Positions 8,059 through 46,044 of a stretch of DNA of 64,000 nt are shown here, one piece after another. The notes under the pieces are model-generated. The model made no database searches. It was given only the letters and a program-made list of their open reading frames with translations, and was not told the DNA's origin. The translations under genes and the position numbers were made by a program. Each line of letters opens with the position of its first letter. Positions within the stretch are counted from its first letter, which is position 1. Source of the DNA: an uncultured delta proteobacterium (GTDB taxonomy: Bacteria > Myxococcota_A > Polyangia > Polyangiales > Polyangiaceae); assembly GCA_963782055.1 (NCBI GenBank), contig CAWAIF010000003.1:1984001-2048000 (forward strand). Reading direction: 5' to 3'.

Positions 8059-8829
8059 ATGGCGAAGCGATTCGACGGGATGGTGGCGCTTGTCACCGGG
8101 GCGGCTCGAGGCATCGGCGCGGCGACGTGCCGGCGGCTCGGCGACGAGGGGGCGACGGTCTTCGCGTGCGACGTGCTGGACGAGGAGGGCGAGGCCATGG
8201 TCCGCGACATGACCGCGGGCGAGCGCGACGCCTTCTACCTCCACCTCGACGTCGCGGTGCAGAGCCAGTGGCAGGCGGTCGTGCAGCAGGTGGCCGCGCG
8301 CGCGGGACGTCTGGACGTCCTCGTCAACAACGCCGGGATCGCCCGGCTCGAGGACATCGAGCAGGAGACCGTGGAGGGCTTCGCGCACGTCATCGCGGTC
8401 AACGAGACGGGGGTGTGGCTGGGGATGAAGAGCGCGATGGCGATGCTCAAGCAGTCCGGCGGGAGCATCGTCAACGTCGCGTCCATCCTCGGCACGGTGG
8501 GCGGCAACGGCACCGCCATCGCCTACCAGGCGTCGAAGGGGGCCGTGCGGCTGATGACCAAGAACGCCGCCATCCGCTACGCCAAGGAGGGCGTGCGGGT
8601 GAACTCGGTGCACCCGGGCTACATCGAGACGCCGATGGTGGCGCCCTTCCTCTCCGGCGAGACGGAGGTCGCCACGCAGATGCGCGCGTACGTGGAGGCG
8701 ACCACGCCGATGGGGCGGCTCGGCCGCTCGGAGGAGGTCGCCGCGGCGATCGCCTTCCTGGCGAGCCGCGACGCGACCTACGTGACCGGCAGCGAGCTCT
8801 ACGTCGACGGCGGCTGGACCGCGTGGTGA
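8059..8829 (+). CDS. Short-chain dehydrogenase/reductase
   Basis: TGAARGIG, NNAG, YQASK, VDGG. Confidence 0.93.
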   Translation: MAKRFDGMVALVTGAARGIGAATCRRLGDEGATVFACDVLDEEGEAMVRDMTAGERDAFYLHLDVAVQSQWQAVVQQVAARAGRLDVLVNNAGIARLEDIEQETVEGFAHVIAVNETGVWLGMKSAMAMLKQSGGSIVNVASILGTVGGNGTAIAYQASKGAVRLMTKNAAIRYAKEGVRVNSVHPGYIETPMVAPFLSGETEVATQMRAYVEATTPMGRLGRSEEVAAAIAFLASRDATYVTGSELYVDGGWTAW

Positions 8830-8854
8830 GCGACGCGTCGGTGCGCGCCTCGTG

Positions 8855-8869
8855 TAGGATGCGCCCATG
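8855..8869 (+). promoter_or_regulatory. Putative -10 box with leaderless start codon (5' exon of intron copy 1)
   Basis: TAGGAT, 6 nt, ATG; no SD. Confidence 0.55.
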
Positions 8870-10906
8870 GTGCGCCGTGAAGAAGCAGGTCGTCCGTCGG
8901 GCATGCCCGACGAACGACCTGCCTCAAGCTGCGCTTCTCCAGCGGGTGAGAGTCCCGCACCGGTAAGCGTCGGAGCGCCGGGTAGCAGGCCCCAGCCGAG
9001 CGGGAGAGATCCCGTCGGCCGAGCGGGGCGTCGAAAGGGTCCACGGACCGAGCGAGCACGCGGGCCGCAACATGAAGTGAAGCTTGCAGCCTCGTCAGAT
9101 CTACAAACCGGGAGCCGAGCCGATCATGTCGCGGCGAAGGCAATATCGGCGGCGCCAGATCCGAAACGCGCCGTCGGTCCCGGCGGGGTAGGGAGCGCAG
9201 CACGCGTGCAAGGAGGAGTGCGGAACTCGGGAGGCCCGTCTGCGTCGCCCTCGTCGGGGCAAGGCGCGTCGTATAAGCCAGAGGCGAAGTCGGCCGCTGC
9301 GCAGCGGGAGTCCGAGGGGGTCACTGTACCGAAGAGCGAGGCGCGAGCTTCGCGAACGAACGCCGTGAAGAACAACGCGGCAGGAGGGAAAGACCCCTGC
9401 AGTGGTCGTGTCGGCGGAGCAGGTAAGCGCGAGGGCATGGCCGGCGAGACCGGTCCCAACCACCCCCATCGGCGACAGCCCATGGACAAAGTGCGACAAC
9501 TGCAACGCCGGCTGTGTGCCGCGGCCAAGCGGCATCCGGAGCGCCGATTCCACGCGCTGTATGACCGCATCGCGAGGCGTGACGTCCTCGCGGAAGCGTG
9601 GAAGCGGGTAAGGAGGAACAAGGGAGCCGCGGGCGTCGATGCCCAGACGATCGCGGCGCTCGAGGTGTACGGAGTGGATCGACTCCTCGGAGAGATCCAT
9701 GACGTGCTCCGTGCAGGCAGGTACCGGCCGGCAGCGGTGCTGCGCCGGTACATCCCGAAGGCCGATGGGAAGAAGCGGCCGCTTGGGATCCCGACGGTCC
9801 GAGACCGGGTGGTGCAGATGGCGACGAAGCTCGTGCTGGAGCCGATCTTCGAGGCGAGCTTTCGCTCGTGCTCGTACGGCTTCCGTATCGGGCGGAGCGC
9901 GACGGACGCCCTGGAGACGCTGAGGAAGCTCGGCGCGAAGGGGTACAACCACGTGCTCGACGCCGACATCCGTGACTACTTCGGGAGCATCGATCACGAC
10001 AAGCTGATGAAGCTCGTCGAGCGGCGCATCTCGGACCGGAGGGTGCTCAAGCTGCTGCGGCAGTGGCTCACGGCGGGGGTGATGGACGAAGGCACGGTGA
10101 CCAACCCCTCCAGCGGCACGCCGCAGGGCGGGGTGATCTCGCCGCTGCTCTCGAACATCTACCTCGCCGTGCTCGACGACGTGTGGACGAAGCGGTGCGC
10201 GCATCTTGGCGAGCTGGTTCGTTATGCGGACGACTTCGTCGTGATGTGCAGGACGAAGCGTGACGTCGACGAGGCCGAGCTTCGCGTGAAGCACGTGATG
10301 ACGCGACTCGGGCTCGAGCTGCACCCGGACAAGACGAGGAAGCTGGACCTCTCCTGGGGTAAGAAGGGGTTCGACTTCCTCGGCTGCCACCTGCGGAAAC
10401 GCTTGAGCGGGTCCATCTGGGAGAGGTCGCGCAAACGCGTGTACTTCCTCCAGCGCTGGCCATCGGCTCGCGCGATGAAGCGGATCCGGCAGCGCGTGAG
10501 GGACCTCACCCCGCGATCACGCTGCCACGCGGACCTGCGCGACGTCGTCGCGCAGCTCAACCCCGTGCTGCGTGGCTGGGGCGAGTACTTTCGCACCGGG
10601 AACGCCGACGTGAAGTTCAACCGACTCGACGAGTACGTGTACGAACGGCTTCGAGCGCTGCGCCTGAAACGGGCCGGCTCGAAGCTCAAGGCCGGACAAG
10701 CCGAGCGCTGGACCCGCGACTACTTCGTCGAAGGCTTCGGGCTCCACCGCCTGCGCGGGACCATCCGCTACCCGGAGGCCGCGTAATGCCGCGTCACGAG
10801 AGACCACCGGTAAGCCGTGTGCGGGAAATCCGCACGCACGGTTTGAGAGGGGGTCTTGACTCCAACCGCCGCCGTAGGGCGGCCAAGGTGTAAGGATCTA
10901 CCAATG
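8870..10906 (+). mobile_element. Group II intron copy 1 (2037 nt), inserted after the host ATG
   Basis: 5' GTGCG; domain V 10812-10844 with AGC triad; domain VI with bulged A10900; RT ORF; boundaries fixed by comparison with copy 2. Confidence 0.95.
9482..10786 (+). CDS. ltrA: Group II intron RT/maturase without endonuclease domain (frame open from ATG 8867)
   Basis: RPLGIPTVRDR, DADIRDYF, GTPQGGVISPLL, YADD, FDFLG, domain X LNPVLRGWGEYF; no HNH tail. Confidence 0.96.
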   Translation: MDKVRQLQRRLCAAAKRHPERRFHALYDRIARRDVLAEAWKRVRRNKGAAGVDAQTIAALEVYGVDRLLGEIHDVLRAGRYRPAAVLRRYIPKADGKKRPLGIPTVRDRVVQMATKLVLEPIFEASFRSCSYGFRIGRSATDALETLRKLGAKGYNHVLDADIRDYFGSIDHDKLMKLVERRISDRRVLKLLRQWLTAGVMDEGTVTNPSSGTPQGGVISPLLSNIYLAVLDDVWTKRCAHLGELVRYADDFVVMCRTKRDVDEAELRVKHVMTRLGLELHPDKTRKLDLSWGKKGFDFLGCHLRKRLSGSIWERSRKRVYFLQRWPSARAMKRIRQRVRDLTPRSRCHADLRDVVAQLNPVLRGWGEYFRTGNADVKFNRLDEYVYERLRALRLKRAGSKLKAGQAERWTRDYFVEGFGLHRLRGTIRYPEAA

Positions 10907-11560
10907 TCGCACTGGGAGCACCGACCCGAGCCGAAGTGGCGTGAGTTCAAGTTCAACCAGCCGTACGCGAAGGGGCTGAAGCGCCTGCGCGAGGAGGTCC
11001 TCGCCAAGACCGACTTCGACCCCGCGACGCTCTGGCAGTGGGGGACGATGCAGGCGATGGCGCTGATCGAGGTGCTCAAGTCCTGCGAGGCGACCTTCGG
11101 CGCGGAGGGGCAGAAGCTGGTGCAGGACGCGCTCCATCGCGTCGGTCAGGACGTCGGCCGGCAGATCCTGGAGGGTGTGGAGATCCCAGACGACCTGACC
11201 GAGACCGAGTTCATCTCCTTCTACGCCACGGTCATCAACCGCATCCCGTACGCCTCGCTGGAGGCGCCGCGCATCGACGCCGAGGGCAAGGCGACCTTCG
11301 ACATCCTCTGGTGCCCGCACCAGGACCACTACGGCGCCTTCGACTGCCGCGTGCAGCGCTACTTCGTGCAGGGGATGATCGACGCCGCGCGCGAGCACGC
11401 CGCGGGCTTCGGCTTCGAGGTGCGCTTTGACACGACGATCCCGTCGGGGTCGCCGACGTGCCACTTCACGATGTGGAAGCCGACGGAGGAGGAGCGCGCC
11501 GCGTGGGAGGGCACGACGAAGCTGATCGAGGACAAGGCGCTCGCCCGCGCGAAGCGGTAG
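10904..11560 (+). CDS. Hypothetical protein, host gene of intron copy 1 (possible V4R/ATC-hydrolase-like fold)
   Basis: 218-aa ORF with WCPH, DC and CHF motifs; ATG supplied by the intron end or by 8867 after splicing. Confidence 0.75.
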   Translation: MSHWEHRPEPKWREFKFNQPYAKGLKRLREEVLAKTDFDPATLWQWGTMQAMALIEVLKSCEATFGAEGQKLVQDALHRVGQDVGRQILEGVEIPDDLTETEFISFYATVINRIPYASLEAPRIDAEGKATFDILWCPHQDHYGAFDCRVQRYFVQGMIDAAREHAAGFGFEVRFDTTIPSGSPTCHFTMWKPTEEERAAWEGTTKLIEDKALARAKR

Positions 11561-16446: not shown

Positions 16447-18528
16447 GTGAAAGTCACCAGTAGCGTGCTCGTCGTGGCGTTCTTGGCCGCGTTCGGAGCG
16501 GCGGTCGCCTGCGGCGACAGCGGGAACGGTTTCATTCCTGACGGCGGGGATCTGGACGCCACCGCGGGCGACGCCAGCGACGACTCGCCGGGCTTCAACA
16601 ACCAGCCCGACGCCTCGGCGGGCCTGGTGGTCCAGCCGCCCACGGCGACGCTCGTCTACAACGGCTCTCCCGTCACGCAGCAGTTCACCGCGCTGTCGAA
16701 CAACCAGCCGCTCGCCGGCGTGCAGTGGTCGATCGACAACTTCGCGCTGGGCACCATCGACTCCAGCGGCCTGTTCACGGCCTCCGGCACCGTGGGCGGC
16801 ACCGGTCACGTCACCGCGGTCAAGGGCAACGCCAGCGGGTCCGCGACGATCCTGGTGCAGGTGCAGCTCTCGGCGAACCCGGGCAACGTCCCGAGCGGCG
16901 TCATCAGCCAGCTCAAGGGCGGCGGCAGCGCCGACTCGGCCTTCAAGTGGCTCTACCCCTACGACAAGACCCTCTGGCCGCGCGGGCTCACCGGCCCGCT
17001 CCTGCAGTTCGGCGGCTCGGCGATGCAGTACGCGTGGCTGCACGTGGAGACAGCCTCGAAGTCCATCGTCTACGACGGCTACTACGGCGCGGCCAGCCCG
17101 GCGCGGCTGGATCTCTCGAGCGACCCGATCTGGACGACCATCGGCAACTCCGCCGGGCCGAACGACGCGGTCAGCGTCAGCGTCACCAAGATGTCCGGCG
17201 GCCAGGTGACCGGGCCGATCAAGGAGACGTGGACCTTCGCGCAGGGCTCGCTCAAGGGCACCGTCTACTACAACTCGTACGACTCCAAGCTGGGCAACGG
17301 CTACGGCGCGGTGCTCAAGTTCAAGCCCGGCAACGGCAACACCGCGCAGCTCCTGGTGGGCGGCACGAGCAGCAAGTGCACGGTGTGCCACACGGTCAGC
17401 TCCAACGGCAACGTGATGATCGCCGCGAACAGCACGTACGACACCGGCGCCCGTTACGACCTGCAGAACAACGCCGCCCAGAGCCAGGGCCGCAACGACT
17501 ACGTCTACAACTTCCCGGCGCTCAACCCGGACGGCAGCGTCGTCGTCTCCACCACCAGCGACAAGATCGGCGGCATGTGGTCGTCGGCCGCGTCCCACGT
17601 CTACGACGGCTCGGGCGCGCAGATGAACGGCACCGGCTTCGAGTCGCTCGTCTCCTACGCGGCCATGCCGGCGTTCTCGGCCGACGGCAAGCTGCTCGCC
17701 TTCAACAACGAGCACCAGCCCGCGATGAACGGCGCCAGCCCCAACAACGAGATCGACGTCCTCTCCTTCGACCCCAACGCGAAGAAGTTCTCCAACCTGG
17801 TGAAGCTGGTGAGCGACGCCAACGCGAGCAACCTGCTCGGCTGGCCCTCCTTCACGCCCGACGGCAAGCTCGTCGTCTACGACCACCACCAGGGCACCAA
17901 CTCGGAGGGCACCAACTACGGCACCTGGGGCGCGCAGCGCTCGGTGCTGGAGATGGTCGACGTCTCCTCGAAGACCGTCTACCCGATCAACGCTCTCAAC
18001 GGCCTGGATGGCAGCAACCAGCCGTACCTCCCCTTCGGCGCGGACGACGAGAACCGCAACTTCGAGCCGAACGTGCTGCCGCTCGCGGCGGGCGGGTACT
18101 TCTGGGTCGTGTTCACCAGCCGCCGCCAGTACGGCAACACCATCAACTCGGCGGAGACGGGCGCGTACGGCCAGGACATCCGCAAGAAGCTCTGGGTCGC
18201 GGCGATCGACATCAACCCGACGCCTGGCACCGACCCGAGCCACGCGGCCTTCTACCTGCCGGGCCAGGAGGTCACCGCGGGCAACATGCGCGGCTTCTGG
18301 GTGCTCGACCCGTGCAAGCAGAACGGCAACTCGTGCGAGTCCGGCGACGAGTGCTGCGGCGGCTTCTGCCGTCAGGTCGCGGGGCCGGATGGCGGCGTCG
18401 AGAACGTGTGCGTGCCGCCGCCCAACGGCTGCTCGCACGAGTTCGAGAAGTGCACCACCGCGGCCGACTGCTGCGACCCGGGTGATCAGTGCATCAACGG
18501 CTTCTGCGCCATCCCCCCGCCGAAGTGA
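16447..18528 (+). CDS. Lipoprotein with TolB/PD40-like propeller and Cys-rich C-terminus
   Basis: SD AGGAGG, lipobox AVAC, PAFSADG and PSFTPDG repeats, CC-containing tail. Confidence 0.85.
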   Translation: MKVTSSVLVVAFLAAFGAAVACGDSGNGFIPDGGDLDATAGDASDDSPGFNNQPDASAGLVVQPPTATLVYNGSPVTQQFTALSNNQPLAGVQWSIDNFALGTIDSSGLFTASGTVGGTGHVTAVKGNASGSATILVQVQLSANPGNVPSGVISQLKGGGSADSAFKWLYPYDKTLWPRGLTGPLLQFGGSAMQYAWLHVETASKSIVYDGYYGAASPARLDLSSDPIWTTIGNSAGPNDAVSVSVTKMSGGQVTGPIKETWTFAQGSLKGTVYYNSYDSKLGNGYGAVLKFKPGNGNTAQLLVGGTSSKCTVCHTVSSNGNVMIAANSTYDTGARYDLQNNAAQSQGRNDYVYNFPALNPDGSVVVSTTSDKIGGMWSSAASHVYDGSGAQMNGTGFESLVSYAAMPAFSADGKLLAFNNEHQPAMNGASPNNEIDVLSFDPNAKKFSNLVKLVSDANASNLLGWPSFTPDGKLVVYDHHQGTNSEGTNYGTWGAQRSVLEMVDVSSKTVYPINALNGLDGSNQPYLPFGADDENRNFEPNVLPLAAGGYFWVVFTSRRQYGNTINSAETGAYGQDIRKKLWVAAIDINPTPGTDPSHAAFYLPGQEVTAGNMRGFWVLDPCKQNGNSCESGDECCGGFCRQVAGPDGGVENVCVPPPNGCSHEFEKCTTAADCCDPGDQCINGFCAIPPPK

Positions 18529-18591
18529 CGGGGACCCCCTCTCTGGCACACGCTGGCACGCGCCATCCCCCAGCAAGCCCGCACTTCGCGC

Positions 18592-18607
18592 TGGCACGTA
18601 GCCTGCT
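18592..18607 (+). promoter_or_regulatory. sigma54 -24/-12 promoter of the intron-2 host gene
   Basis: TGGCACGTAGCCTGCT (GG-N10-GC); ATG at 18621. Confidence 0.7.
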
Positions 18608-18623
18608 AACGGTCGTGCCCATG

Positions 18624-20660
18624 GTGCGCCGTGAAGAAGCAGGTCGTCCGTCGGGCATGCCCGACGAACGACCTGCCTCAAGCTGCGCTTCTCCAGCGGG
18701 TGAGAGTCCCGCACCGGTAAGCGTCGGAGCGCCGGGTAGCAGGCCCCAGCCGAGCGGGAGAGATCCCGTCGGCCGAGCGGGGCGTCGAAAGGGTCCACGG
18801 ACCGAGCGAGCACGCGGGCCGCAACATGAAGTGAAGCTTGCAGCCTCGTCAGATCTACAAACCGGGAGCCGAGCCGATCATGTCGCGGCGAAGGCAATAT
18901 CGGCGGCGCCAGATCCGAAACGCGCCGTCGGTCCCGGCGGGGTAGGGAGCGCAGCACGCGTGCAAGGAGGAGTGCGGAACTCGGGAGGCCCGTCTGCGTC
19001 GCCCTCGTCGGGGCAAGGCGCGTCGTATAAGCCAGAGGCGAAGTCGGCCGCTGCGCAGCGGGAGTCCGAGGGGGTCACTGTACCGAAGAGCGAGGCGCGA
19101 GCTTCGCGAACGAACGCCGTGAAGAACAACGCGGCAGGAGGGAAAGACCCCTGCAGTGGTCGTGTCGGCGGAGCAGGTAAGCGCGAGGGCATGGCCGGCG
19201 AGACCGGTCCCAACCACCCCCATCGGCGACAGCCCATGGACAAAGTGCGACAACTGCAACGCCGGCTGTGTGCCGCGGCCAAGCGGCATCCGGAGCGCCG
19301 ATTCCACGCGCTGTATGACCGCATCGCGAGGCGTGACGTCCTCGCGGAAGCGTGGAAGCGGGTAAGGAGGAACAAGGGAGCCGCGGGCGTCGATGCCCAG
19401 ACGATCGCGGCGCTCGAGGTGTACGGAGTGGATCGACTCCTCGGAGAGATCCATGACGTGCTCCGTGCAGGCAGGTACCGGCCGGCAGCGGTGCTGCGCC
19501 GGTACATCCCGAAGGCCGATGGGAAGAAGCGGCCGCTTGGGATCCCGACGGTCCGAGACCGGGTGGTGCAGATGGCGACGAAGCTCGTGCTGGAGCCGAT
19601 CTTCGAGGCGAGCTTTCGCTCGTGCTCGTACGGCTTCCGTATCGGGCGGAGCGCGACGGACGCCCTGGAGACGCTGAGGAAGCTCGGCGCGAAGGGGTAC
19701 AACCACGTGCTCGACGCCGACATCCGTGACTACTTCGGGAGCATCGATCACGACAAGCTGATGAAGCTCGTCGAGCGGCGCATCTCGGACCGGAGGGTGC
19801 TCAAGCTGCTGCGGCAGTGGCTCACGGCGGGGGTGATGGACGAAGGCACGGTGACCAACCCCTCCAGCGGCACGCCGCAGGGCGGGGTGATCTCGCCGCT
19901 GCTCTCGAACATCTACCTCGCCGTGCTCGACGACGTGTGGACGAAGCGGTGCGCGCATCTTGGCGAGCTGGTTCGTTATGCGGACGACTTCGTCGTGATG
20001 TGCAGGACGAAGCGTGACGTCGACGAGGCCGAGCTTCGCGTGAAGCACGTGATGACGCGACTCGGGCTCGAGCTGCACCCGGACAAGACGAGGAAGCTGG
20101 ACCTCTCCTGGGGTAAGAAGGGGTTCGACTTCCTCGGCTGCCACCTGCGGAAACGCTTGAGCGGGTCCATCTGGGAGAGGTCGCGCAAACGCGTGTACTT
20201 CCTCCAGCGCTGGCCATCGGCTCGCGCGATGAAGCGGATCCGGCAGCGCGTGAGGGACCTCACCCCGCGATCACGCTGCCACGCGGACCTGCGCGACGTC
20301 GTCGCGCAGCTCAACCCCGTGCTGCGTGGCTGGGGCGAGTACTTTCGCACCGGGAACGCCGACGTGAAGTTCAACCGACTCGACGAGTACGTGTACGAAC
20401 GGCTTCGAGCGCTGCGCCTGAAACGGGCCGGCTCGAAGCTCAAGGCCGGACAAGCCGAGCGCTGGACCCGCGACTACTTCGTCGAAGGCTTCGGGCTCCA
20501 CCGCCTGCGCGGGACCATCCGCTACCCGGAGGCCGCGTAATGCCGCGTCACGAGAGACCACCGGTAAGCCGTGTGCGGGAAATCCGCACGCACGGTTTGA
20601 GAGGGGGTCTTGACTCCAACCGCCGCCGTAGGGCGGCCAAGGTGTAAGGATCTACCAATG
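18624..20660 (+). mobile_element. Group II intron copy 2 (2037 nt), inserted after the host ATG
   Basis: Matches copy 1 at offset 9754; shared internal ORF translations are identical. Confidence 0.95.
19236..20540 (+). CDS. ltrA: Group II intron RT/maturase (frame open from ATG 18621)
   Basis: Same protein as copy 1; YADD. Confidence 0.96.
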   Translation: MDKVRQLQRRLCAAAKRHPERRFHALYDRIARRDVLAEAWKRVRRNKGAAGVDAQTIAALEVYGVDRLLGEIHDVLRAGRYRPAAVLRRYIPKADGKKRPLGIPTVRDRVVQMATKLVLEPIFEASFRSCSYGFRIGRSATDALETLRKLGAKGYNHVLDADIRDYFGSIDHDKLMKLVERRISDRRVLKLLRQWLTAGVMDEGTVTNPSSGTPQGGVISPLLSNIYLAVLDDVWTKRCAHLGELVRYADDFVVMCRTKRDVDEAELRVKHVMTRLGLELHPDKTRKLDLSWGKKGFDFLGCHLRKRLSGSIWERSRKRVYFLQRWPSARAMKRIRQRVRDLTPRSRCHADLRDVVAQLNPVLRGWGEYFRTGNADVKFNRLDEYVYERLRALRLKRAGSKLKAGQAERWTRDYFVEGFGLHRLRGTIRYPEAA

Positions 20661-31820: not shown

Positions 31821-31893
31821 GGGGCCGTAGCTCAGCTGGGAGAGCGCATCCATGGCATGGATGAGGTCAGGGGTTCGATCCCCCTCGGCTCCA
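31821..31893 (+). tRNA. tRNA-Ala(GGC)
   Basis: Cloverleaf; G3:U70; anticodon arm CATCC-ATGGCAT-GGATG; GTTCGATC; CCA not encoded. Confidence 0.96.
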
Positions 31894-45207: not shown

Positions 45208-46044
45208 ATGCGATCGAACCTGCCCTTTTCTCTCGTCCTTGCGGCCGTTGCCGTTGTCCCCCTCGTCGTCATCGCGTGCGGTGGGAGCGACAATCCCCCG
45301 CCGCAGACCGCCAACAACGCCGCGCAGCCGCAGGGCTACCCGCCCCCGCAGCAAGGGTATCCGCCGCAGCAGGGCTACCCGCAGCAGGGCTACCCGCAGC
45401 AGCAGGGCTACCCTCCGCAGCAGCAGGGCTACCCCCCGCAGCAGGGCTACCCGCCGCCGCAGGGCACCGCGCCGCCGGCGTACACCGCGCCGCCGCAGGG
45501 CACGGCGCCGCCGGCGTACACCGCGCCGCCGCCGCAGGGCACCGCGCCGCCGCCTGCGGGCACAGGCACCTTCGCCATTCCCTCCACGCTCCCGACGTTC
45601 GGGGCGCCGCCGCAGGGCAACGCGCCGGCGGGCGCGCCCGCGCAGGCGATCAACCCGATGCTGGCCAGCGCCGCCACCATGCCTCTCGGCGCCTTCGCGG
45701 CGACCGAGGCGCCCGGCATGGCACGGGAGGGCAACATCAACGCGGCCAACTTCCAGCAAGGCCAGATCCAGGAGGTGCCGGTCACCCTCCAGCCGGGCAA
45801 GTGCTACACGGTGCTCGCCGTCGGGATCGGCATCCAGAACGTGGACATCGCCCTCATCGCCACCACGCCCATCCCCAACGTCAACCCGGTGCTCGCGCAG
45901 GACAACGGCACCGGCTCGCAGGCGTCGCTGGGCGGCAAGGGAAACTGCTACCGGCTGCCGGTGCCCATCACGGTGCAGGCGAAGTATGTCGTCCGGGCGA
46001 CCGCCGGGGCGGGGCTGGCGGCGAGCGCGCTCTTCGTGAAGTGA
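45208..46044 (+). CDS. Lipoprotein with (P)PQQGY repeats
   Basis: Lipobox VIAC; coding repeats ~45330-45555. Confidence 0.85.
   Translation: MRSNLPFSLVLAAVAVVPLVVIACGGSDNPPPQTANNAAQPQGYPPPQQGYPPQQGYPQQGYPQQQGYPPQQQGYPPQQGYPPPQGTAPPAYTAPPQGTAPPAYTAPPPQGTAPPPAGTGTFAIPSTLPTFGAPPQGNAPAGAPAQAINPMLASAATMPLGAFAATEAPGMAREGNINAANFQQGQIQEVPVTLQPGKCYTVLAVGIGIQNVDIALIATTPIPNVNPVLAQDNGTGSQASLGGKGNCYRLPVPITVQAKYVVRATAGAGLAASALFVK

What the first reader, a model, noticed from the sequence alone, without database searches (positions are those of the whole stretch)
8867..9481. RT ORF is open in frame from the host ATG through 615 nt of ribozyme
Seen: the host ATG reads without a stop through domains I-III into the RT (639 aa) in both copies. 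I count 10 stop triplets in 8870-9481 (8878, 8947, 8964, 8983, 9073, 9078, 9189, 9274, 9366, 9424), all in the other two frames; naive chance is (2/3)^10, about 2%. The conserved-domain start MDKV (9482) has no evident SD. Established: some mitochondrial group II IEPs are translated as fusions with the upstream exon. Inference: the IEP may be expressed from the captured host promoter and start codon.
Basis: partly seen in the sequence, partly recalled or inferred. Interest (0 to 1): 0.75.

Follow-up and report, generated by a model that had tools for sequence, protein, structure and literature searches.

The report
Intron enzyme translated from host start
A mobile self-splicing intron sits directly behind the start codon of bacterial genes that appear to lack a leader, and keeps its front 600 bases free of stop codons, apparently so that its reverse transcriptase is made from the host gene's own promoter and start codon.

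Summary
ATG 8867 opens a 639-codon frame through ribozyme domains I-III into the reverse transcriptase (RT).

In the window alone this is weak: 1-3% by shuffling, and the two copies are identical. Relatives make it strong.
- I examined 80 related introns from many phyla. For 65 of them, plus the window, I could place the 5' end.
- In 58 of these 66 the distance from start codon to RT is a multiple of 3, across 21 different lengths.
- In 57 of those 58 the frame has no stop. The other two frames carry 462 stops in 42 non-redundant sequences.
- Each of the 8 out-of-phase loci is one indel away from an open frame.
- Lineages that are not fused end the upstream frame beside or on top of a conserved internal ATG (window 9437).

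The stretch is a real ribozyme, with 100 of 137 pairs showing compensatory changes. It shows no protein-level constraint and is predicted disordered.

All 72 insertion sites follow a start codon. In 67 of them a TAnnnT box lies just upstream, mostly 6-8 nt. An exon-binding loop, 5'-CAUN, pairs with N'AUG.

Translation is inferred, not shown. I found no published description. Earlier notes of this scan report the same lineage in other genomes.

The parts
8855..8860 (+). TAGGAT, a -10-like hexamer of the host gene, 6 nt before the start codon
   Evidence: Read directly. A TAnnnT hexamer at spacer 6, 7 or 8 gives 41, 18 and 7 hits among 72 insertion sites, against 19 of 2088 control ATGs. The E. 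coli-type sigma-70 scan finds no full promoter here.
8867..8869 (+). Host start codon, the last 3 nt of the 5' exon and part of IBS1 (8866-8869, CATG); first codon of the 639-codon frame
   Evidence: Orthologues without the intron start ATG-GCN-CAC-TGG at this point in 7 of 7 relatives. The 5' codon varies between ATG and GTG among copies of one intron within a genome.
8870..10906 (+). Group II intron copy 1, 2037 nt, GTGCG...CTACCAATG
   Evidence: Rfam RF02003, RF02005 and RF00029 match at gathering score. The reading register follows from the EBS1-IBS1 pairing and from the bulged A lying 6 nt from the end.
8870..9436 (+). Ribozyme domains I-III plus the start of domain IV, read as codons 2-190 of the open frame (dual use)
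   Evidence: The alignment has 137 consensus pairs, 100 of them with compensatory changes. There are 0 frame-0 stops against 462 off-frame stops in 42 sequences. Divergence by codon position is 0.252/0.285/0.287. pLDDT is below 50 for residues 1-205.
8885..8922 (+). Variable hairpin near the 5' end, at the base of domain I
   Evidence: Folds at -31.4 kcal/mol, z-score -6.7. Its length is 0-50 nt in relatives and always changes in steps of 3.
9123..9131 (+). EBS1 loop AUCAUGUCG; CAUG at 9126-9129 pairs with the exon's CAUG
   Evidence: Hairpin loop seen. The fourth base pairs with exon position -4 in 62 of 68 introns, and 0 of 10,000 permutations reach that count. CAC replaces CAU in 4 introns, and all 4 sit behind GTG.
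9437..9439 (+). Conserved internal ATG in frame with the RT, the likely ancestral start of the intron-encoded protein in domain IVa
   Evidence: GGCATG in frame in 56 of 79 loci. Most of the rest have GGAATG. Two have GTG and one has ATA.
9482..10786 (+). RT plus maturase coding part and stop codon; no endonuclease domain
   Evidence: Pfam RVT_1 and GIIM. The closest solved structure is GsI-IIC RT, E = 2.8e-57. pLDDT is high for residues 206-629.
10811..10845 (+). Domain V
   Evidence: RF00029; fold at -19.4 kcal/mol, z-score -4.6.
10849..10902 (+). Domain VI with a bulged A at 10900
   Evidence: Fold.
10904..10906 (+). The intron's own terminal ATG, in frame with the host ORF
   Evidence: Constant among copies within a genome. 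A host ORF of at least 100 aa follows in frame in 53 of 63 loci.
10907..11560 (+). Host gene (3' exon), weak ATC_hydrolase-like match
   Evidence: orthologues.
18621..20660 (+). Copy 2: host ATG plus an identical intron, followed by a lipoprotein-like ORF (MRSLLLALLSASSLALGAC...)

Best explanation
The window holds two identical copies of a mobile group II intron. It belongs to a widespread lineage that inserts between the start codon and the second codon of genes whose start codon lies 6-8 nt behind a -10-type promoter box. That layout is the signature of leaderless genes.

The intron reads the start codon by base pairing. Its exon-binding loop 5'-CAUN pairs with N'AUG, or with GUG by wobble; introns carrying CAC pair with GUG directly.

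After insertion, the host promoter would give an RNA that begins AUG-GUGCG... A ribosome starting at that AUG would run through about 600 nt of ribozyme (domains I-III), which selection keeps stop-free and in phase, into the RT/maturase gene in domain IV. In this window the product would be a 639-aa protein: a disordered, unconstrained 205-residue head followed by the enzyme. The intron thus borrows both transcription and translation start from its target.

Shown here by sequence comparison: the insertion site, the pairing, conservation of phase and openness, the RNA structure, and the lack of protein-level constraint. Inferred: that the hosts are leaderless, that translation starts at 8867, and that this is how the enzyme is made.
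For: (1) Phase. In 58 of 66 introns the distance from start codon to RT is a multiple of 3, across 21 different lengths from 549 to 672 nt.

(2) Openness. 57 of those 58 have 0 stops in the start-codon frame. In 42 non-redundant sequences (under 90% aa identity) the other two frames hold 217 and 245 stops at 69 distinct alignment columns, and frame 0 holds none.

(3) The 8 out-of-phase loci each fit one indel: frame 0 is open up to some point x, and the RT frame is open from a point before x. In the quick tree they sit as sisters of, or identical to, fused ones.

(4) Non-fused lineages still couple the frames. L096 and L099 have TAG-GGC-ATG. In L082 the upstream frame stops 5 nt after the internal ATG. 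In L078 it stops about 30 nt before it. L083, L088 and L100 share AUGGUGA, where the RT-frame AUG overlaps the frame-0 UGA, and their lengths (554, 563, 620) are all 2 mod 3.

(5) The stretch is a working-type ribozyme: Rfam hits at gathering score, and 100 of 137 pairs carry compensatory changes.

(6) The peptide itself is not selected. Divergence by codon position is 0.252/0.285/0.287, against 0.265/0.221/0.472 in the RT. It matches no Pfam domain, and pLDDT is 27-38 over residues 1-205.

(7) Target. There are 72 distinct sites: 63 follow ATG, 8 GTG and 1 AGG. 67 have TAnnnT upstream, with 41, 18 and 7 hits at spacers 6, 7 and 8, against 0.9% of 2088 control ATGs. In this genome 7 of 9 copies have the strict motif, against 1.0% of 46,635 CATG sites. 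The motif marks ORF starts here: 79% are followed by an ORF of at least 100 aa, against 40% for other ATGs.

(8) Seven intron-less orthologues start at exactly this ATG, and 6 of them have a -10-like hexamer (four strict TAnnnT, two near-matches) 6-7 nt upstream.

(9) The EBS1 covariation holds in 62 of 68 introns, and 0 of 10,000 permutations reach that count.
Against: No transcript start, ribosome footprint or protein has been seen. The RNA libraries that hold the intron are assembled contigs covering 8918-10852 only, with no flanks and no joints, and DNA carry-over cannot be excluded.

The internal ATG 9437 is conserved in nearly all relatives. The enzyme could therefore start there, and the upstream frame might serve another purpose.

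The E. coli-type sigma-70 scan finds no full promoter before either copy. The leaderless reading rests on a -10-like hexamer alone.

A ribosome crossing domains I-III should disturb ribozyme folding, and a leaderless transcript would have a 5' exon of only 3 nt. How splicing and translation would be reconciled is unexplained.

Only the 80 best of 577 relatives found were examined. Many come from metagenome bins. The tree used is a quick one, rooted at its midpoint.
Confidence: 0.7

Rival explanations
1. Ribosome cover only. Translation from the host start codon through domains I-III serves to keep the long RNA covered, for example against Rho-dependent termination or decay. The working enzyme is made separately from the conserved internal ATG 9437, and the fusion protein is a by-product.
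For: The internal ATG is conserved in almost all relatives. The N-terminal stretch shows no protein-level constraint and is predicted disordered. Several lineages make the enzyme without the extension, because the upstream frame ends at the internal ATG.
Against: Cover alone would not need a fixed phase, yet phase with the RT is kept in 58 of 66. In non-fused lineages the upstream frame ends within about 30 nt of, or overlapping, an RT-frame ATG (the conserved internal one, or in L083/L088/L100 an upstream one), which is the geometry of termination-reinitiation. There is no good Shine-Dalgarno spacing before 9437: GAGGG ends 1 nt before the ATG.
Confidence: 0.2
2. Chance. A GC-rich sequence (0.69) has few stop triplets, so the 205-codon open stretch is an accident.
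For: In the window alone, P is 1-3%. The same window lists spurious ORFs of 800-1190 aa. The two copies are identical, so they count once.
Against: There are 0 frame-0 stops against 462 off-frame stops at 69 distinct columns in 42 non-redundant relatives. Phase is kept across 21 different lengths.
Confidence: 0.01
3. The 205-residue head is a functional protein domain of the enzyme, for example one that finds promoters or binds the polymerase or ribosome.
For: It is always present in the fused clade. Its amino-acid identity is 0.57, against 0.66 for the RT. The basis of targeting to -10-adjacent start codons is unknown.
Against: There is no third-position excess in divergence, so the identity follows from RNA constraint. 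It matches no Pfam family. pLDDT is below 50 with no secondary structure. Some lineages lack it altogether.
Confidence: 0.05
4. The host genes are not leaderless. TAnnnT is a sequence that the intron or its protein recognises in DNA, transcripts come from further upstream, and the frame is read by ribosomes that start at the host ATG in the usual way.
For: No start-site data exist. The sigma-70 scan finds no full promoter. TAGGAT before copy 1 contains AGGA at Shine-Dalgarno distance.
Against: The hexamer is there without the intron in 6 of 7 orthologues. It is enriched at ORF starts across the genome. Most hexamers (TACCAT, TAACGT, TAGAAT) are not Shine-Dalgarno-like. Even under this reading, the enzyme is still read from the host start codon.
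Confidence: 0.15

Closest known systems
Specialised subgroup IIB1 clade at initiation or termination codons (Avi.groEL, EcKTE56.groEL). Source: Michel et al. 2007, Biochimie 89:542, which I did not see myself; I read only its description in passages of PMC12584367.
   Same: Bacterial group II introns tied to start or stop codons of protein genes. [quoted passage not shown]
   Different: That clade has a 300-700 nt subdomain Ia and a CL1-type RT with an endonuclease domain. It is found in proteobacteria, in housekeeping genes, and its RT has its own Shine-Dalgarno sequence and UUG start in domain IVa. This lineage has no endonuclease domain. Domains I-III are of ordinary length, 507-624 nt. It occurs in many phyla and in varied, non-housekeeping hosts. 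EBS1 is 4 nt, and the RT frame is joined to the host start codon.
Bacterial class C (IIC) introns, such as GsI-IIC and B.h.I1
   Same: Short EBS1-IBS1 pairing of 3-4 bp. Target choice seems to need something beyond sequence. The RT lacks an endonuclease domain. The closest solved RT is GsI-IIC, E = 2.8e-57.
   Different: IIC introns insert after terminator hairpins or attC sites. Here no terminator-like site lies upstream, and the context is a -10 box plus a start codon. I know of no report of a IIC RT frame running from the 5' exon.
Organellar intron ORFs fused to the upstream exon. The yeast mitochondrial group II introns aI1 and aI2 are recalled, not taken from any call. Group I homing-endonuclease genes fused to the exon and matured by proteolysis come from passages of PMC7487136.
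   Same: The intron protein is read in frame from the upstream exon through the 5' part of the ribozyme, borrowing the host's expression signals.
   Different: Those fusions carry a long host polypeptide and occur in organelles. Here the 'exon' part is the start codon alone, the host is a bacterium, and the arrangement comes with a dedicated start-codon targeting mechanism.
Group IIC-attC introns with outward-facing promoters (PMC3001079; search listing and abstract only)
   Same: An intron that carries signals at its 3' end to express the gene downstream of it.
   Different: Here the possible signal is (T)AGGAT-CTACCA-ATG, ending in a start codon in frame with the host ORF. Its function has not been tested.

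Membership tests
Group II intron (mobile, RT-encoding) | Six-domain ribozyme with domain V and a domain VI carrying a bulged A | tested here: met
   RF02003, RF02005 and RF00029 match at gathering score. 100 of 137 pairs in domains I-III show compensatory changes. Domain V and VI folds show a bulged A at 10900.
Group II intron (mobile, RT-encoding) | Intron-encoded RT with a maturase (X) domain, located in domain IV | tested here: met
   RVT_1 at 1.1e-36 and GIIM at 1.1e-16; group II RTs are the top solved-structure matches.
Group II intron (mobile, RT-encoding) | EBS1-IBS1 pairing with the end of the 5' exon | tested here: met
   CAUN pairs with N'AUG in 62 of 68 introns, and 0 of 10,000 permutations reach that count. 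The 4 introns with CAC all sit behind GTG.
Group II intron (mobile, RT-encoding) | Recent mobility: identical copies at different sites | tested here: met
   Nine 5' ends at 100% identity with different flanks; an empty site in 7 orthologues.
Group II intron (mobile, RT-encoding) | Self-splicing and lariat formation | not testable with these tools
   No spliced joint appears in the RNA contigs, but contigs cannot show absence.
Specialised IIB1 clade at start or stop codons (Michel 2007) | Insertion in or next to an initiation or termination codon | tested here: met
   72 of 72 sites lie directly after a start codon.
Specialised IIB1 clade at start or stop codons (Michel 2007) | Large 5'-subterminal insertion (subdomain Ia, 300-700 nt) | tested here: not met
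   Only a 0-50 nt hairpin sits at that place, and domains I-III measure 507-624 nt.
Specialised IIB1 clade at start or stop codons (Michel 2007) | CL1-lineage RT with a C-terminal endonuclease domain | tested here: not met
   The protein ends after the maturase domain with no further Pfam domain. The class of the RT was not placed on a reference tree.
Specialised IIB1 clade at start or stop codons (Michel 2007) | Housekeeping host genes, proteobacteria | tested here: not met
   Hosts include lipoprotein-like and uncharacterised ORFs. Carriers include Myxococcota, Acidobacteriota, Actinomycetota, Planctomycetota and others.
Class C (IIC) introns | Insertion just after a terminator hairpin or attC site | tested here: not met
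   0 terminator-like sites upstream of either copy; the context is a -10 box plus a start codon.
Class C (IIC) introns | Short IBS1 (3-4 nt) | tested here: met
   Only 4 positions pair consistently.
Class C (IIC) introns | RT falls in phylogenetic class C; IIC ribozyme fold | tested here: inconclusive
   The closest solved RT is GsI-IIC at 2.8e-57, but the T.el4h RT follows at 1e-49. No reference phylogeny was built, and the IIC-specific RNA features were not examined.
Intron ORF fused to upstream exon (organellar type) | Intron protein frame continuous with the 5' exon through the ribozyme | tested here: met
Intron ORF fused to upstream exon (organellar type) | Fusion protein is made and then processed | not testable with these tools
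   No protein data.

The most novel reading that the evidence does not exclude
This would be a fourth target specificity for bacterial group II introns: start codons of leaderless genes, read by an EBS1 triplet (CAU) that has the same sequence as the initiator-tRNA anticodon. It comes with an expression strategy not reported in bacteria. The intron has neither a promoter nor a ribosome-binding site of its own. Its enzyme is made only because ribosomes that load on the 5'-terminal host AUG translate straight through a catalytic RNA that doubles as a stop-free, in-phase reading frame. The still-unknown cue that limits insertion to -10-adjacent start codons could be the open promoter complex or the leaderless initiation machinery itself.
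Probability: 0.5. Interest if true: 0.88.

Novelty: new variant of a known kind. Interest (0 to 1): 0.8.

Why it matters
Bacterial group II introns are taught as promoter-less elements whose protein has its own start signals inside domain IV. The 2015 review that I searched by term (PMC4424553; matching passages only) lists only three target habits: homing sites, terminators and attC sites.

This lineage, spread over many phyla, shows two further things. It targets a functional class of site, leaderless start codons. And about 600 nt of catalytic RNA is held under a second, purely 'syntactic' constraint: no stops, fixed phase.

That gives a natural system for several questions. How do translation and ribozyme folding share one RNA? 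How does a ribonucleoprotein find promoter-adjacent start codons? How does a 3-nt 5' exon suffice for splicing? It also predicts that intron spread depends on how common leaderless genes are in a genome.

The lineage could also yield a compact gene-targeting tool aimed at start codons.

Tried and rejected
RNA evidence. One search found 20 RNA runs, and I laid four runs from one study. Their contigs cover 8918-10852 at 100% identity but stop at the hairpin and at domain VI. They give no flanks, no joints and no start sites, so nothing follows about transcript starts, splicing or expression.

The E. coli-type promoter and terminator scan on 8700-8960, 18450-18720 and 10780-10960 found 0 sites of either kind.

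Programmed -1 frameshift in L083, L088 and L100. No slippery heptamer was found in the overlap; the overlapping AUGGUGA explains the arrangement better.

The CAUG in the loop of the 5' hairpin (8903-8906) as an IBS1 mimic: that stretch is not conserved in relatives.

Ancestral state of the fusion. The tree is a quick one with a midpoint root and one very long branch (L060), so I draw no conclusion about order of events.

Intron class. Toro 2013, Nagy 2013, Waldern 2020 and Miura 2022 were searched by term, and none mentions start-codon targeting. Michel 2007 could not be opened.

Literature searches turned up no description of leaderless start-codon targeting, of an EBS1 CAU, or of a bacterial intron-encoded protein fused through domains I-III. 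Supplements were not consulted.

I made no complex prediction or fold search, because the extension has no confident structure.

The 497 of 577 relatives beyond the best 80 were not examined.
Full report
WHAT IS THERE

The window lies in a 7.6-Mb genome of about 0.70 GC. Rfam finds two group II introns on the + strand at gathering score. Each has domain I-IV pieces (RF02003, RF02005) and domains V/VI (RF00029). Copy 1 is 8870-10906 and copy 2 is 18624-20660. The two are identical.

The frame that begins at ATG 8867 runs 639 codons to 10786. Pfam places RVT_1 at residues 296-509 and the maturase domain GIIM at 537-605. Nothing matches residues 1-205, and there is no endonuclease domain. The closest solved protein is the GsI-IIC reverse transcriptase.

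THE OBSERVATION

Shuffling gives 1.0-2.8% for an open frame of this length and composition. So the window alone is only suggestive. The second copy is not independent, and this GC-rich window also lists spurious ORFs of up to 1193 aa.

WHERE THE INTRON SITS

The genome holds nine 5' ends of the same element at 100% identity. Seven copies are complete, one is interrupted and one is rearranged.

- Every copy is preceded by ATG (GTG once), and every copy ends in ATG.
- The flanks otherwise differ.
- What follows each copy is an ORF that begins right there. Several of these ORFs have lipoprotein-type signal peptides.
- Seven intron-less orthologues of the copy-1 host gene, from related genomes, start ATG-GCN-CAC-TGG at exactly this point. 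Six of the seven have a -10-like hexamer 6-7 nt upstream: four are strict TAnnnT and two (GAAGAT, GATGAT) are near-matches.

RELATIVES

A search of one genome per species with the RT gave 577 confirmed relatives. The best 80 (56-90% identity) were kept. They come from Myxococcota, Acidobacteriota, Planctomycetota, Gemmatimonadota, Pseudomonadota, Spirochaetota, Actinomycetota and other phyla.

Pooling these with the genome's own copies gives 72 distinct insertion sites. Of these, 63 follow ATG, 8 follow GTG and 1 follows AGG. In 67 sites a TAnnnT hexamer lies just upstream, with 41, 18 and 7 hits at spacers 6, 7 and 8. The remaining five sites have near-matches. Only 19 of 2088 other ATGs in the same flanks have this motif.

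In this genome, 1.0% of 46,635 CATG sites carry the motif, against 7 of 9 intron sites. The motif marks ORF starts: 79% of the 917 motif sites are followed by an ORF of at least 100 aa, against 40% of other ATGs. This layout is what established knowledge of high-GC bacteria associates with leaderless genes. No transcript start was seen here, and the E. coli-type scan finds no full sigma-70 promoter.

HOW THE START CODON IS READ

A 9-nt hairpin loop in domain I (window 9123-9131, AUCAUGUCG) holds 5'-CAUG.

- In 62 of 68 introns, the base after CAU pairs with the base before the start codon: 53 Watson-Crick pairs and 9 wobble pairs. None of 10,000 permutations reaches that count.
- Four introns have CAC instead of CAU, and all four sit behind GTG.

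So the start codon is IBS1, and the 5' exon ends with it. Two further facts fix the element as 8870-10906, with a terminal ATG of its own. The 5' codon varies among copies of one intron within a genome while the 3' ATG stays constant. And the bulged A of domain VI lies 6 nt from 10906.

THE FRAME IN RELATIVES

For 65 loci, plus the window, the 5' end lies inside the contig. The results:

| Measure | Result |
|---|---|
| Start-codon-to-RT distance is a multiple of 3 | 58 of 66 |
| Different lengths among the in-phase set | 21 (549-672 nt) |
| In-phase loci with no stop in that frame | 57 of 58 (L078 has one) |
| Stops in each of the other two frames | 3-12 per locus |
| Off-frame stops in 42 non-redundant sequences | 217 + 245, at 69 distinct columns |
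| Frame-0 stops in the same 42 sequences | 0 |

The eight out-of-phase loci differ by one or two bases from a common in-phase length. Each fits a single indel. In the quick tree they are sisters of, or identical to, fused introns. That pattern suggests recent decay or sequencing error.

Three further loci are cut 2 nt short of the start codon, and they are open in the matching frame. Six loci are truncated or broken. One carries a nested second intron.

LINEAGES THAT ARE NOT FUSED

These are informative because they still link the two frames.

- L096 and L099 are in phase, with a single stop, in the arrangement TAG-GGC-ATG. The ATG is the conserved internal one.
- In L082 the upstream frame ends 5 nt after that ATG. 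In L078 it ends about 30 nt before it.
- L083, L088 and L100 share AUGGUGA, where an RT-frame AUG overlaps the stop of the upstream frame. Their lengths (554, 563 and 620 nt) are all 2 mod 3.
- All of these also sit behind a -10 box plus a start codon.

What is conserved across the sample is therefore an unbroken path for ribosomes from the host start codon to the RT gene. The path is either a fusion or a stop/start juxtaposition.

THE STRETCH IS RNA FIRST

The 42-sequence alignment folds into 137 consensus pairs, 100 of which carry compensatory changes. Divergence by codon position is flat in the extension (0.252/0.285/0.287), whereas the RT shows the usual third-position excess (0.265/0.221/0.472).

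A structure prediction from a 33-sequence alignment gives pLDDT 27-38 and no secondary structure for residues 1-205. The enzyme part folds with high confidence. So only the phase and the absence of stops are under selection in the extension, not the peptide.

THE INTERNAL START

ATG 9437, inside the motif GGTAAGCGCGAGGGCATGGCC, is conserved. This leaves room for the main rival reading: that ribosome passage matters and the enzyme starts at 9437. The fixed phase and the coupling geometry make me prefer the view that ribosomes from the host start codon make the enzyme. In this window that would be as a fusion.

COMPARISON WITH WHAT IS KNOWN

[quoted passage not shown] I know it only through passages of PMC12584367. 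That clade has a 300-700 nt subdomain Ia, a CL1 RT with an endonuclease domain, and its own Shine-Dalgarno sequence and start codon. Those features are not met here.

IIC introns share the short IBS1 and the closest solved RT, but they insert after terminators, and none is present here. Organellar intron ORFs fused to the upstream exon are the functional analogue (the yeast aI1/aI2 case is recalled, not taken from a call).

Eight literature searches and term look-ups or section readings in ten papers found no description of this habit. Earlier notes of this scan describe the same lineage in at least seven other genomes. Those are not independent evidence. I reached my reading before seeing them.

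LIMITS

- No transcript start, footprint or protein data exist.
- The RNA contigs only show that the intron sequence is present in soil RNA libraries from one study.
- 80 of 577 relatives were examined.
- Many loci come from metagenome bins.
- The tree is a quick one.

VERDICT

This is a new variant of a known kind. Confidence in the mechanism is 0.7, and interest is 0.8.

Noticed in passing
window 10889-10906 and 20643-20660; 3' ends of L022-L101: The intron ends in its own start codon, preceded by (T)AAGGAT-CTACCA; most relatives have TAGGAT-CTACCA-ATG. This copies the target layout of a -10-like box, 6 nt and ATG, or alternatively an AGGA Shine-Dalgarno sequence at 7 nt. A host ORF of at least 100 aa follows in frame in 53 of 63 loci. 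It may keep the host gene expressed without splicing.
   Followed up: partly
L024, L025, L029, L031, L032, L038, L042, L043, L050, L058, L060, L095 (3' parts): In 12 of 80 loci the RT frame stays open 105-129 nt beyond the RT match, through domains V and VI. It closes only about 9-13 nt before the intron's terminal ATG, which is a possible stop/start coupling to the host ORF.
   Followed up: no
5' ends of L070, L084-L087, L042, L043, L083, L088, L096, L099, L100: The first five intron bases are not always GTGCG. They are TCGCG in L070 and L084-87, GAGCG in L042 and L043, and TTGCG in the Actinomycetota lineages. This is unusual for group II 5' ends.
   Followed up: no
window 8885-8922; alignment A1 columns 14-61: A variable 0-50 nt hairpin sits at the base of domain I, where the Michel-2007 clade has its large subdomain Ia. 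Most length differences among relatives arise here, always in multiples of 3.
   Followed up: partly
L068: A different group II intron, with its own RT, is nested inside this relative.
   Followed up: no
own genome: L008/L012 and L009/L011/L010: One copy is interrupted about 1.5 kb before its 3' end. Another is internally deleted, and its halves lie about 14 kb apart on opposite strands, which looks like an inversion between intron copies.
   Followed up: no
L071: The start codon before this otherwise open copy reads AGG. Sister copies in the same genome have ATG.
   Followed up: no
window 10852: An RNA contig from run X4 leaves the intron at 10852, the start of domain VI, and continues into 73 unlike letters. 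In run X3 a contig ends there in adapter sequence. Unexplained.
   Followed up: no
window 45323-45650: Imperfect tandem repeats with an 18-21 nt period, rich in CAG/GGC/TAC/CCG, consistent with a Q/G/Y/P-rich low-complexity coding stretch.
   Followed up: no
window 31821-31893: A tRNA gene on the + strand.
   Followed up: no
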